A DNA stretch of 64,000 bases from Bdellovibrionales bacterium (GTDB lineage Bacteria; Bdellovibrionota; Bdellovibrionia; Bdellovibrionales; UBA1609). Under the pieces are notes generated by a model. The model was not told where the DNA came from. It ran no database searches and saw nothing but the letters and a program-made list of their open reading frames with translations. The position numbers were made by a program, and so were the translations under genes. Of this stretch, positions 57,145 through 61,006 are shown piece by piece; within the stretch, counting starts at the first letter, position 1; each line of letters starts with the position of its first letter. Location of the stretch: assembly GCA_965226095.1 (NCBI GenBank), contig OZ245336.1, positions 74,919 to 138,918 of the forward strand, written 5' to 3'.

Positions 57145-59523
57145 TTATTGAATATAAGGTTGTCCTCTATATTTTCCTTTAGATGAAGAGTCTTGATCTG
57201 GAAATTGAAAATAAAGTGCCACAATAGATGCAGGAGCTTCTAATGTTTTATCTACTACATTTCTTTCCGATTTTCGTGGATAATCTTTTTTATTTGATTT
57301 TTCATCAATAGTATAAACAATAAGTTTTGGTTTTTCGGTTTTCTTCAATCTATGCTTTAATTGTGAAATTTTTAAAGAATCACCTTTTTTCATTAATGCT
57401 CTATGAATTTTATTTACTTTTAATTTTTCTGAATACCTAAAACCCTCAGAATCTTCACTGGCTTTAGAGTTATATATTGTAATTATCCATTCAGAATACT
57501 TATTTTTAAAATCTTTAATTTTATTTTGAAATTTTATTTTAGATTTTGGATTACAAAATTGATAACTTTCAATAAAATTTTCAATCTCCTTTACAGAAAC
57601 TATAAAATTAGAATTATCATTATTGTTTTTTACCAAACTTTTAACAATATTTATATTATCCATTAGTTTATCATAATCAAAATAAAACTCTAAAGTCGTT
57701 AAATAATCCTCTACTACATTAATATCTTCAAAAGATTTTCCCTCTTTAACTTTACTAACAACTTTCATTGATTGATGGCTTTTAATGTGAGGTTTAACTA
57801 AAACTGGAGAAGCTCCTTCTTCATTAAACTTTTCTTTTATATACTCTCTAAACTCTTCTTCTATGTCCACAAGCTTAATTAAATCATTTTTTAATCTTTG
57901 TGTTGTATAAATTCTTATATATTTTAAATAATCCTCTCTAAACCCACACCATCTTTGCATTTGAAGCAAGCTATCATATTGATGCTTTCCTTTAGATTCT
58001 CTTGTAAAAAAACTAGTGAGCAATCCTTCTAACGTGAGACCCCTAGCTAAAATATTGCCTCCAATGACTATGTACACCTTATTTTGTTCTTGATACTTAA
58101 GAATATGTTTATCTTCTTCTATTGCCTGGTCAGAGTTTAGTTTTTTAGTTTCTATTTTGTCTACAAAATATCTATAATGGTTGAAAATACTCTCAAAAGA
58201 AACTTCTCGCAATAAAAAAGAAAACTGCTTTTCAAATAAATCTTCAAATTCTCTTTTTATATTTAAATATTTGGGATGTTCTAAATAATGCTTTAAGCCC
58301 TTAACTATTTCATTCACTTCACTTTCATATTTGCTATGCACATTTTTTTTATAAGATGGATGAACTAACATTGAGAAATTATTTTTAGGTGGTAAAAAAC
58401 TCTTTTTTTCTTTAATTATACAACAACTTAAAATAAAAGAATATATTGCTTCTTTCAGTTTTTGCTGAGCGCCCTCATCAGAAATAGATACAAAATTATC
58501 ATATTTTTCAATAAAATCCTTAGTTCCAGTATAACCTTCTGGGGTATCTAATAAAAAAATAAAATCTTTAGGGTATAAATCCTCCGTATTATTTGCATCA
58601 ATGAACACATTTGCAAAGGGAGTTGCTGAAAAACCGACATATACTATTTTATTAAAACAATTAATTAAATTTCTAATTTCTTGATTTGTTTTTGTAGGGT
58701 CAAAATCTTCTTTGTTCGCATTCGTATCAATAGAAGCATCATCACATTCATCATCAATAATCAAACAAGGATGATTTTTTAACTCTGGATTTTTTTCAAT
58801 TTTTTCTTTAATTTTTTTTAAAGTAGAAGGAATTTTCTTTATGATCGCTATTTTAGGTTTATTTAAGTTTGAATCTAGATCTACTGTACCACCTTTAAAA
58901 TCTTTATCAGAATCAGTAGTAAGTTTAGACCATGTATCTGATTCTGTTAATACTTCATTATCAAATCTCAATTGATTTTGTTGTCTTAATGCATTTGTTC
59001 TTCCACACATAATAATGATAAACCTATATCCAAAATCTACTGCCCTACATACAAGAGATTCTATATTTGCTGTTTTTCCACTCTGAATTTGACCAATAAC
59101 CAAACCTTTAAATTTATAATTTTCATTACTCTTTCCGGGCTCTGGAAATTCTTCTATCATTTTTTCTGAGTGAGATTTTAATAGTGCAATAGATTTTTCA
59201 GATGTTTTATTTTCTCTTAAAATATTAGTATAGGAATCAAAATAAATATGTCGTTGTTCCATATTAGTTATATCACAATATTTAATATTTGGATTATCCT
59301 TTAGTTTAGACACTCTCCAAATATTTGGTTCAAATTTTCTAATTTTCCCTTCAACTCCGTCCTTTACTTGATTTTTAAGACGAATAGGAACATTTTCTTC
59401 TTCTATAGCTTGCTCAATTTTTTGGTCTAAGTTTTCCGAAAATTCTTGGTCTGAAAAATTTTTCTTAAGTAAGTGTGCATAAATAATTCCTATCCATTCA
59501 TTTATTGTTATTTTATCCATCAT
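57145..59523 (-). CDS. Z1-domain SF2-type NTPase (792 aa)
   Basis: GLVIGQIQSGKTAN (Walker A), LIIDDECDDASIDT (Walker B), GFSATPFAN and GGNILARGLTLEGL. The C-terminal ~230 aa are unassigned. Confidence 0.8.
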   Translation of the reverse strand: MMDKITINEWIGIIYAHLLKKNFSDQEFSENLDQKIEQAIEEENVPIRLKNQVKDGVEGKIRKFEPNIWRVSKLKDNPNIKYCDITNMEQRHIYFDSYTNILRENKTSEKSIALLKSHSEKMIEEFPEPGKSNENYKFKGLVIGQIQSGKTANIESLVCRAVDFGYRFIIIMCGRTNALRQQNQLRFDNEVLTESDTWSKLTTDSDKDFKGGTVDLDSNLNKPKIAIIKKIPSTLKKIKEKIEKNPELKNHPCLIIDDECDDASIDTNANKEDFDPTKTNQEIRNLINCFNKIVYVGFSATPFANVFIDANNTEDLYPKDFIFLLDTPEGYTGTKDFIEKYDNFVSISDEGAQQKLKEAIYSFILSCCIIKEKKSFLPPKNNFSMLVHPSYKKNVHSKYESEVNEIVKGLKHYLEHPKYLNIKREFEDLFEKQFSFLLREVSFESIFNHYRYFVDKIETKKLNSDQAIEEDKHILKYQEQNKVYIVIGGNILARGLTLEGLLTSFFTRESKGKHQYDSLLQMQRWCGFREDYLKYIRIYTTQRLKNDLIKLVDIEEEFREYIKEKFNEEGASPVLVKPHIKSHQSMKVVSKVKEGKSFEDINVVEDYLTTLEFYFDYDKLMDNINIVKSLVKNNNDNSNFIVSVKEIENFIESYQFCNPKSKIKFQNKIKDFKNKYSEWIITIYNSKASEDSEGFRYSEKLKVNKIHRALMKKGDSLKISQLKHRLKKTEKPKLIVYTIDEKSNKKDYPRKSERNVVDKTLEAPASIVALYFQFPDQDSSSKGKYRGQPYIQ

Positions 59524-61006
59524 CTATTTCTTCCTTAAAAAAACTTTTAAACTTATTAAAAGAAGGTATATGTTCTCGTTTCAATCTTTTATTTTTAATA
59601 ACCTCCAACAATAACAGAAGACTAATTGAAAAATTTTTAAACTTATTACTTCTACCAGTTTTTTTCTCTAGAAAAAAAGACATAGAATGTGAAACTGGAA
59701 CACTAATAATAATCTTATTATCTCTTGGATTTCTATTACATAAAATCTTATTACCGTTTTTTATTGTTTTAATCTCTATAACATTCTCAATATCTATCGG
59801 TTTGTAGCGTTTTCTTTGTATTGGTTTAGTTCCTTTATTATTGTTTTTTCCATACCATCTCTTTCTAGCTTCTTGAATCCAATCTTTCAAGAAAATGGAA
59901 ACTTCACTTTTATATTTCTTAGGGATAACAGCTTTTTCTTTGGAAATGTTTGTTTCAAAAATTAAATCTAATTTTTCATTAAAATCAACAGCAACTCTAA
60001 GTAAAATATTTTTTCTGTCCTTTGTAGCACATGAACTCCAATCACCATATCTTAAAAGTCTACCATTTCTATAAAAGTAAAAACCTTGACAAGATAACCA
60101 TGTTCCTTGTTTTGAAGCTTTTTTGTACACTTCAGTAGATGAAAACTGATCTTCTCTTGGAAGAATATAAGGGCTAAATACCACTTTACTTTTATTAGCT
60201 CCTTCTTTTCCATAATCAAAGTAGACTTCTTTTTTATCCAGTTGCCTAGTTTTTTCCTTTGTACAAAAAGGATCAATAGATTCAATTGTTTTTTCATCAA
60301 AAAATATTTTTAATCTTTTTTTATTACTAATTGTTCCATCAAGAAATCTGTGAAAAGTTAATCCTAAGTGAGATTTTAACTTATTCGTTGAATCAACTAT
60401 AAATCTATGCTTTTTATCTTCATCTGAGTTATATAAATCTGGAAGAAATTCTTTCATATCACTCCAAATAACTAATGTTCCTCCGTTACTTATTTTTTCT
60501 TCATATGTTTTTAATATCAATTTCTCATGATTCTCTAATTCACTTCCTTTAGGGTTCAATATATGCCATTCATCATTTCCATAAACGTAATTTATATCCC
60601 ATTTGCAGATATTTAATCTGGATTTAGATTCTAATTGAATTCTTGGTTTTGAGATAATTGTTAAAATCCTACACTGACTTAAAGACGCTGTTTTTAATCC
60701 TAATCCAAATTTACCTAAATCTCTTTCAGAGTATTTCTCCTTTGAACCAAACCTCATTGCCTCTATCATTTGTTTTTTATCCATCCCTCGCCCGTTATCA
60801 CAAATAACTACATATGGCTCATCAGATTCATTGATACACATATCTATATAAATTTCAGAGGAATCTGCTTGAATGCTGTTATCAACAAGATCAGCTATAG
60901 CTGTATGAAAAGAATAACCTATTTGAGTAAGGCTTTCTATTAACCTTAGAGGAGTTGGAGGAACTGGAATAGATTTAATCTGTTTTGGCATTAGTTGTTG
61001 CATCAT
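59513..61006 (-). CDS. GHKL (HATPase_c_3, MORC/MutL-like) ATPase (497 aa)
   Basis: N box AIADLVDNSIQA, G1 box CDNGRGMD and G2 box GKFGLGLKTAS. Overlaps the Z1 gene start by 11 nt. Confidence 0.8.
   Translation of the reverse strand: MMQQLMPKQIKSIPVPPTPLRLIESLTQIGYSFHTAIADLVDNSIQADSSEIYIDMCINESDEPYVVICDNGRGMDKKQMIEAMRFGSKEKYSERDLGKFGLGLKTASLSQCRILTIISKPRIQLESKSRLNICKWDINYVYGNDEWHILNPKGSELENHEKLILKTYEEKISNGGTLVIWSDMKEFLPDLYNSDEDKKHRFIVDSTNKLKSHLGLTFHRFLDGTISNKKRLKIFFDEKTIESIDPFCTKEKTRQLDKKEVYFDYGKEGANKSKVVFSPYILPREDQFSSTEVYKKASKQGTWLSCQGFYFYRNGRLLRYGDWSSCATKDRKNILLRVAVDFNEKLDLIFETNISKEKAVIPKKYKSEVSIFLKDWIQEARKRWYGKNNNKGTKPIQRKRYKPIDIENVIEIKTIKNGNKILCNRNPRDNKIIISVPVSHSMSFFLEKKTGRSNKFKNFSISLLLLLEVIKNKRLKREHIPSFNKFKSFFKEEIDDG

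What the first reader, a model, noticed from the sequence alone, without database searches (positions are those of the whole stretch)
57145..61006. Minimal two-gene Z1-NTPase + GHKL-ATPase module with no methylase, AIPR or recognisable nuclease
Two minus-strand genes overlapping by 11 nt make up essentially the whole second island module.

Seen directly:
- The upstream 497-aa protein has Bergerat-fold motifs: DLVDNSIQA, DNGRGMD, GKFGLGLKTAS.
- The downstream 792-aa protein has Z1-type motifs: GQIQSGKT, IIDDECDDAS, GFSATPFAN, GGNILARGLTLEGL. It also has an unassigned ~230-aa C-terminus.

Established knowledge, from memory and needing confirmation: Z1 and HATPase_c_3 genes co-occur in restriction-like neighbourhoods with Dcm-type methylases and AIPR proteins. 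The five-gene Mza system of Gao et al. 2020 combines a MutL-like ATPase with a Z1 protein.

Inference: none of the other components is present here. The pair is therefore either a stripped-down autonomous variant whose effector is hidden in the unassigned C-terminal regions, or a decayed remnant.
Basis: partly seen in the sequence, partly recalled or inferred. Interest (0 to 1): 0.7.

Follow-up and report, generated by a model that had tools for sequence, protein, structure and literature searches.

The report
Orphaned ATPase pair from restriction system
Two overlapping genes encode the ATP-driven engine of a methylase-linked restriction-like defence system (a MORC/MutL-like clamp ATPase and a CglI-type DNA translocase), but the methylase and any DNA-cutting part are missing here, so it is most likely a recently orphaned remnant and not a new minimal system.

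Summary

Best reading: an orphaned motor-plus-clamp pair, probably inert as a restriction system. The motor is still under purifying selection, while its DNA-binding domain drifts neutrally. It is a variant of a known kind, of moderate interest.

The parts
59513..61006 (-). GHKL (paraMORC/MutL-like, MzaB-like) ATPase gene, 497 aa
   Evidence: ORF. HATPase_c_3 E=2.2e-30. MzaB-like, PADLOC E=7e-47 and NCBIfam 181.6 bits against a cut-off of 850. The family profile hits MORC2/3/4 and MutL N-terminal modules in the PDB, E about 4e-7.
60524..60916 (-). Bergerat-fold ATP-binding domain (residues 31-161), with motifs DLVDNSIQA, DNGRGMD and GKFGLGLKTAS
   Evidence: Pfam coordinates. Family-invariant residues D39, D42, N43, D70, G72, G74, G98, G101-T106 are all retained.
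59882..60523 (-). Middle domain (residues 162-375), probably the S5/transducer-like half of the ATPase module. It carries the conserved QGFYFYRN.RLL motif and K356.
   Evidence: Covered by the MzaB models to residues 367-384 and conserved across the family. The S5 assignment is inferred from Iyer 2008's description of paraMORCs. It was not tested structurally.
59516..59881 (-). GHKL C-terminal region (residues 376-497): a variable linker plus a conserved tail of about 60 aa. Function unknown.
   Evidence: Conserved P437, L467, P481. No Pfam or PDB sequence match. No hhalign match to DUF4420 or Vsr.
57145..59523 (-). [not shown]
59149..59523 (-). N-terminal extension (residues 1-125), unassigned. 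The first ~70 codons are a highly diverged patch relative to the sister strain L006.
   Evidence: No family hit. Few conserved residues. dS=0.74 over residues 1-70 against 0.08-0.23 in the core.
58489..59148 (-). DEAD (RecA N-core) domain: Walker A GQIQSGKT, Walker B IIDDECDD, motif III SATP
   Evidence: ResIII hit at residues 120-303. Invariant G144, Q147-T151, D257-E259, D261, A300, P302.
57754..58488 (-). [not shown]
57148..57753 (-). C-terminal domain (residues 591-792), structurally like the DNA-binding C-terminal domain of the CglI H subunit. It is not a nuclease.
   Evidence: AlphaFold2 model pLDDT 82.8, pTM 0.77. Foldseek top hit and only outlier is 6F1S, E=2.6e-3, prob 1.00, TM 0.52 on the target, with the next hit at E about 1. 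Function of that domain in CglI. dN/dS 0.79 against L006.
61062..61173 (+). Partial copy of a repeat with a terminator-like hairpin, 56-167 nt upstream of the GHKL start. It lies at the point where homology to methylase-bearing loci ends.
   Evidence: the repeat finder family D1. Hairpin ACTGGATTATTCCAGT. Homology to L002, L004 and L005 stops at 60986-60991.
56752..56941 (+). [not shown]
   Evidence: the repeat finder D2, 95% identical to 62357-62546. Also present in L006.
62357..62546 (+). [not shown]
61194..61469 (+). DUF2188 gene (PADLOC candidate PDC-S16). It occupies the divergent position where sister loci carry the long Dcm methylase.
   Evidence: Pfam E=7.7e-17. PDC-S16 E=4.7e-24. Same arrangement in L006. 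Dcm at this position in L002, L004, L005 and L093.

Best explanation
The two genes are the ATP-consuming engine of a Dcm-linked, restriction-like defence module that has lost its other parts.

**What the proteins are**
- The 497-aa protein is a MORC/MutL-like GHKL ATPase (paraMORC, MzaB-like). By analogy it should act as an ATP-gated dimerising clamp or switch.

**What complete relatives have**
- In the wider family, a C5 cytosine methylase marks self DNA and a PD-(D/E)XK protein (DUF4420, distantly MzaD-like) is the presumed blade. Vsr repairs deamination damage.
- In the window's own subclade, the DUF4420 and Vsr genes are absent. The methylase is long and carries a 210-aa C-terminal domain that matched no solved structure. 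That domain is the only candidate for the missing coupling, recognition or cutting function.

**What happened here**
- In the lineage of this window the long methylase gene was replaced by a DUF2188 cassette, possibly by recombination at a short repeat.
- What remains can probably still bind ATP and DNA and translocate. It has no self-mark and no blade, so it is most likely a recently orphaned, non-restricting remnant.

**Shown:** domain identities, gene contexts, absence of partners, selection statistics.
**Inferred:** translocase and clamp activities (from CglI, MutL and MORC), the blade role of DUF4420 (from MzaD), inertness of the orphan pair.
For: **Identity**
- Pfam, PADLOC and NCBIfam hits.
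- C-terminal domain model matches 6F1S alone.
- GHKL profile is closest to MORC2/3/4 and MutL.

**Context**
- A long Dcm is adjacent in L002, L003, L004, L005 and L093.
- DUF4420 is present in 128 of 150 wider-family loci with room downstream.
- DUF4420 is a PD-(D/E)XK family and weakly MzaD-like, E=2.9e-9. MzaD is the purified nuclease of Mza.

**Loss**
- No Dcm, DUF4420 or Vsr trace in the window.
- No cognate Dcm from the window's 1,546,870-bp contig among the top hits, while orthologues at 70% identity or more are listed for sister genomes.
- DUF2188 sits in the Dcm position in both the window and L006.
- Homology to Dcm-bearing loci is confined to 57153-60991, exactly the two genes.
- A repeat copy lies at the junction.

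**No hidden effector**
- hhalign probabilities are below 1% against DUF4420 and Vsr.
- There are no subclade-specific catalytic-looking residues.
- The C-terminal regions are shared with DUF4420-linked relatives.

**Drift**

**Logic**
- Surviving the loss of a methylase with both genes intact implies that the pair alone does not attack unmethylated self DNA.
Against: - Both ORFs are intact in the window, in an independent read-set contig (L001) and in strain L006.
- All family-invariant residues are retained.
- The motor domains show dN/dS 0.25, p=2e-8 against neutrality, the same as in Dcm-bearing relatives.
- The nuclease of the three-gene subclade is unidentified. I therefore cannot show that the blade was lost with the methylase.
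- An unlinked methylase below about 40% identity to the cognate family cannot be excluded.
- The rest of the genome was not available.
Confidence: 0.55

Rival explanations
1. The pair is an autonomous, functional two-gene defence or DNA-management system that needs neither methylase nor dedicated nuclease. For example, a translocase-loaded MORC-like clamp could compact, silence or stall foreign DNA. Alternatively a cryptic catalytic site could sit in the GHKL middle or C-terminal region.
For: - Intact, translationally coupled ORFs in two diverged strains.
- Purifying selection on the motor, dN/dS 0.25, and on GHKL, dN/dS 0.07 from very few differences.
- The pair sits in an integrase-bounded island next to PADLOC defence candidates.
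- The GHKL C-terminal ~120 aa remain structurally unassigned.
- Iyer 2008 notes some paraMORCs in non-R-M contexts.
Against: - The unassigned regions are shared with relatives that have a separate nuclease, so they are not a replacement effector.
- There are no subclade-specific catalytic-looking residues.
- The CTD is evolving neutrally.
- In CglI the H subunit alone has no nuclease activity and needs the R subunit.
Confidence: 0.2
2. The system is complete but split. A methylase, a nuclease or both, encoded elsewhere in the ~1.5-Mb genome, work in trans with the pair.
For: - Only 64 kb of the genome could be inspected.
- Iyer 2008 acknowledge that unlinked R-M partners are possible for solo paraMORCs.
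- Maintenance of intact genes.
Against: - No member of the cognate long-Dcm family from the window's contig (length 1,546,870) or from L006's contig appears among the 120 best hits. Orthologues from sister genomes are listed at 70-80% identity.
- In every complete relative inspected the methylase is immediately adjacent.
Confidence: 0.12
3. [not shown]
For: - DUF2188 is retained at the same position, and the DUF2188-GHKL stretch is about 99.4% identical between window and L006.
- DUF2188 matches PADLOC candidate PDC-S16.
- The 173-aa ORF contains an RNLILH (Rx4H, HEPN-like) motif (read directly).
- The whole set is bracketed by 190-nt direct repeats.
Against: - Homology between window and L006 ends at 61621, about 150 nt into the 173-aa ORF, so that ORF is not conserved as a partner.
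- The 173-aa ORF has no Pfam or PADLOC hit.
- PDC-S16 is a single-gene candidate.
Confidence: 0.08

Closest known systems
CglI / NgoAVII ATP-dependent restriction enzymes (M + R + H; Zaremba 2014 PMC4267653, Toliusis 2018 PMC5861437)
   Same: - It has the unusual Walker A with Gln and the short QxxR motif VI.
- Relatives are linked to a C5-methylase.
   Different: - The partner is a GHKL ATPase. In CglI the partner is a PLD-nuclease/B3 R subunit.
- No PLD or B3 protein is present.
- The protein has a 125-aa N-terminal extension and is 160 aa longer than H.CglI.
- Sequence similarity to 6F1S is undetectable. The similarity is structural only, TM 0.52.
[not shown]
   Same: - Relatives at 30-34% identity sit in exactly this operon.
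- The systems are laterally mobile and located in islands.
   Different: - The window lacks Dcm, DUF4420 and Vsr.
- Its subclade has replaced DUF4420 and Vsr by a long Dcm with a C-terminal domain that matched no solved structure.
- I found no experimental characterisation of these operons in the paper library searched.
mzaABCDE (Mza) anti-phage system, in the Gao et al. 2020 set and validated in E. coli in bioRxiv 10.1101/2022.06.16.496414
   Same: MzaB and MzaC are the best PADLOC and NCBIfam matches for the two proteins.
   Different: - Scores are far below the equivalog cut-offs, 181.6 against 850 and 229.5 against 1500.
- MzaA (sigma-factor-like), MzaD (nuclease) and the AIPR component are absent.
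- As described in those papers, Mza's five genes do not include a methylase, whereas this family's relatives are Dcm-linked.
MutL and eukaryotic MORC GHKL+S5 ATPase modules
   Same: The Bergerat ATP-binding motifs are present. The family profile matches MORC2/3/4 and MutL N-terminal domains, E about 4e-7 to 1e-6.
   Different: - The match covers only residues 27-118.
- The catalytic base position is Asp (D39), not Glu, throughout the family.
- There is no MutL C-terminal endonuclease domain and no CW or coiled-coil domains.
- The S5 half was not verified structurally.

Membership tests
[not shown]
   [not shown]
[not shown]
   GQIQSGKT and QMQRW in the translation. Q147, Q521 and R524 are invariant in 42 family members. 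Motif description.
[not shown]
   The model (pLDDT 82.8) hits 6F1S, E=2.6e-3, prob 1.00, TM 0.52. It is the only hit below E about 1. The similarity is moderate and structural only.
CglI/NgoAVII restriction-modification system | R subunit with PLD nuclease and B3-like DNA-recognition domains encoded next to H | tested here: not met
   No PLD or B3 hit among the neighbouring ORFs. The upstream gene is a GHKL ATPase.
CglI/NgoAVII restriction-modification system | Cognate C5 methyltransferase in the locus | tested here: not met
   tblastn of four Dcm proteins against the window, best E=0.085.
CglI/NgoAVII restriction-modification system | ATP-dependent dsDNA translocation and DNA cleavage | not testable with these tools
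   Needs biochemistry.
Mza (mzaABCDE) | MzaB and MzaC equivalogs (NCBIfam NF041932, NF041933) | tested here: not met
   181.6 bits against a cut-off of 850, and 229.5 bits against 1500. These are homologous but not equivalent.
Mza (mzaABCDE) | Presence of MzaA, the MzaD nuclease and the AIPR component | tested here: not met
   None found among the neighbours by Pfam or PADLOC. Composition taken.
[not shown]
   11-nt overlap. GHKL is adjacent upstream in 50 of the 77 loci of the first survey set (L007-L091) with room upstream, and in 53 of 130 once the metagenome loci are added.
[not shown]
   Absent from the window and from all eight subclade loci. Present in 128 of 150 wider-family loci.
[not shown]
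   A Dcm is present in 5 of 8 subclade loci looked up directly.
GHKL+S5 ATPase module (MutL/MORC/paraMORC) | Bergerat-fold motifs I-IV | tested here: met
   HATPase_c_3 E=2.2e-30. Profile hits to MORC2/3/4 and MutL.
GHKL+S5 ATPase module (MutL/MORC/paraMORC) | S5-fold transducer domain with a conserved Lys following the GHKL domain | tested here: inconclusive
   The conserved middle domain with invariant K356 is homologous to MzaB up to residues 367-384. There is no PDB sequence match beyond residue 118 and no structure model was made.

The most novel reading that the evidence does not exclude
- The new Dcm domain is a new nuclease, or a specificity-coupling fold that lets the methylase act as the recognition subunit.

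Under the second reading the orphan pair in this window would be a still-working, methylation-independent, nuclease-free module.
Probability: 0.15. Interest if true: 0.7.

Novelty: new variant of a known kind. Interest (0 to 1): 0.35.

Why it matters

Three points go slightly beyond the ordinary.
[quoted passage not shown] That gives a concrete mechanistic template.
- The sister loci reveal a three-gene variant with no recognisable nuclease. Its methylase carries a conserved domain that matched no solved structure, and it is a defined target for anyone studying prokaryotic MORC relatives.

Tried and rejected
2. **Dcm extension as a fused nuclease.** The AlphaFold2 model is confident (pLDDT 81.5), but Foldseek against the PDB gives nothing, best E=1.4.
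4. **Methylase, DUF4420 or Vsr remnants in the window.** None.
5. **A conserved extra small gene flanking the module in subclade loci.** None.
6. **Enlarging the subclade sample.**
   - The GTDB species representatives gave only two clearly closer relatives, L007 and L009 (about 30-33% identity by tblastn). Both have DUF4420 downstream.
   - Two JGI metagenome scans gave no member above 34% identity.
   - IMG/VR viral contigs gave one fragment.
   - So the with/without-methylase tally rests on 8 directly inspected loci plus contig-length matching.
7. **Organism name.** The cluster look-up gave no names.
8. **BsuMI (ydiR/ydiS/ydjA) as a possible characterised relative.** This was recalled from memory. 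The papers retrieved did not describe its domains, so it is not used.
9. **The PADLOC 2021 paper as the source of Mza.** It does not mention Mza.
10. **Subclade-specific catalytic residues.** Only scattered conservative changes.
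Full report
**Observation**

They lie at 57145..59523(-) (792 aa) and 59513..61006(-) (497 aa) and overlap by 11 nt. All quoted motifs are present.

Domain assignments are far beyond chance.
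- The GHKL protein hits HATPase_c_3 at E=2.2e-30 (residues 31-161).
- PADLOC and NCBIfam give MzaC and MzaB as best matches. The scores are far below the equivalog cut-offs, 229.5 against 1500 and 181.6 against 850.

Neighbouring ORFs are as follows.
- An AAA_14/DUF4143 protein (PADLOC candidate PDC-S01).
- An Asp-protease fragment.
- DUF2188 (candidate PDC-S16).
- Two small unknown ORFs.

The Pfam scans of 20 ORFs from 39.7 to 64 kb contain no methylase, AIPR, PLD or restriction-type PD-(D/E)xK protein.

The region lies in an island that starts at tRNA-Met (39652-39728). An integrase and an HTH_17 excisionase-like gene follow. GC content falls to 26-31% through most of it.

**What the proteins are**

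Both proteins have thousands of full-length homologues, and these co-occur on the same contigs. Conservation runs along the whole length of both, including the unassigned parts.

- It has a Walker A with Gln (GQIQSGKT).
- It has a short motif VI, QxxR (QMQRW).
- Iyer's 2008 motif DThhQXuRhFG is present as DSLLQMQRWCGF.

I modelled the unassigned C-terminus, residues 586-792, with a 23-sequence alignment (pLDDT 82.8, pTM 0.77). [quoted passage not shown] The scores were E=2.6e-3, probability 1.00 and TM 0.52 on the target, with the next hit at E about 1.

The GHKL protein's family profile matches only MORC2/3/4 and MutL N-terminal modules among solved structures, at E about 4e-7. Its conserved middle domain (QGFYFYRN.RLL, K356) is homologous to MzaB. 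It is presumably the S5 half of the module described for paraMORCs, but that step is inferred. The last ~120 residues remain unassigned.

**Context in relatives**

I built HMMs for the five components and scanned 164 wider-family loci from GTDB genomes and metagenomes.
- DUF4420 is present in 128 of 150 loci with room downstream, and directly adjacent in 122.
- GHKL is adjacent upstream in 50 of the 77 loci of the first survey set (L007-L091) with room upstream. The figure is 53 of 130 once the metagenome loci are added.

DUF4420 belongs to the PD-(D/E)XK superfamily. It weakly matches MzaD at E=2.9e-9, and MzaD is the purified nuclease of Mza.

This operon is the one predicted by Iyer et al. 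2008 and again by Miller et al. 2022.

**The window's own subclade**

This Dcm has a normal PF00145 core (residues 1-355) and a conserved ~210-aa C-terminal extension.
- The extension folds confidently (pLDDT 81.5).
- It has no PDB match, best E=1.4.
- It has no profile similarity to DUF4420 or Vsr.
- No other gene is conserved next to the module.

**What happened in the window**

Three loci in the subclade lack the Dcm.
- The window.

The window and L006 share a DUF2188 gene in the Dcm's position.

Homology between the window and the Dcm-bearing loci covers 57153-60991 only, which is exactly the two genes. A partial copy of a repeat sits at the upstream junction (61062-61173). Full 190-nt copies at 56752-56941 and 62357-62546 bracket the pair together with three small ORFs.

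A search with the sister Dcm lists orthologues from sister genomes at 70-80% identity. It lists none from the window's 1,546,870-bp contig or from L006's contig.

**Selection**

These figures come from my own Nei-Gojobori implementation.
- There are no stop codons, and all five indels are multiples of three.

**Interpretation**

Both genes survived methylase loss intact. This implies that the pair alone does not attack unmethylated self DNA.

My best explanation (confidence 0.55) is an orphaned motor-plus-clamp pair, most likely no longer restricting. The first signs of relaxation are in the CTD, and outright breakage is seen in L092.

The rivals are as follows.
- An autonomous nuclease-free function (0.20).
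- A split system with unlinked partners (0.12).
- A new partnership with the DUF2188 cassette (0.08).

**Comparison with known systems**

- The pair works like the H subunit of CglI joined to a MutL/MORC-type clamp.
- It is not a CglI/NgoAVII system, because it has no PLD-B3 R subunit.
- It is not Mza, because scores are below the equivalog cut-offs and MzaA, MzaD and AIPR are absent.

The three-gene long-Dcm architecture of its subclade appears undescribed in the literature I could search. I therefore rate it a new variant of a known kind, with interest 0.35.

Noticed in passing
[not shown]
   Followed up: partly
[not shown]
   Followed up: partly
L004:6490-7152 (also L002, L003, L005, L093 and P0241-P0360): A conserved ~210-aa C-terminal domain on a widespread family of long (545-587 aa) C5-methylases. 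Conserved motifs are NLNTY, SRFRRH, LSNY, YGTG, NNGFSEKI and QLYALY. The AlphaFold2 model is confident, but there is no PDB structural match and no Pfam hit. Function unknown.
   Followed up: partly
window 61472-61993 (+): A 173-aa ORF starting 3 nt after the DUF2188 stop. It contains an RNLILH (Rx4H, HEPN-like) motif. It has no Pfam or PADLOC hit, and only its first ~50 codons are shared with L006.
   Followed up: no
window 52037-53074 (+): A 345-aa protein with an N-terminal signal-peptide-like sequence and a GmrSD_C (DUF1524-type nuclease) domain. Two copies of a Cys-rich ~35-aa module follow (VKKSRSGICH...SGGRCPK). This may be a secreted nuclease. It is conserved in L006 but on the other side of the pair, so there has been a rearrangement.
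   Followed up: no
window 54941-56110 (-): An AAA_14 + DUF4143 ATPase with a weak NERD match. It matches PADLOC single-gene defence candidate PDC-S01 (E=1.7e-42) and lies just downstream of the pair.
   Followed up: no
window 39652-41328: tRNA-Met, a tyrosine integrase overlapping its 3' end, and an HTH_17 excisionase-like gene. This is the probable left boundary of an integrative island. Cargo includes a weak HEPN_RiboL-PSP protein (42634-43545), a NYN-domain protein (45667-46455) and the pair. GC drops from ~37% to 26-31% through most of the region.
   Followed up: partly
window 49245-50618 (-): A full-length bacterial serpin (PF00079, E=6e-94) with a signal or lipoprotein-like N-terminus, inside the low-GC region.
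   Followed up: no
window 54259-54873 (+): A 204-aa lipoprotein-like ORF. It is made largely of EQLR/AEEQRR repeats and has a Cys-rich C-terminus. No family hit.
   Followed up: no
[not shown]
   Followed up: partly
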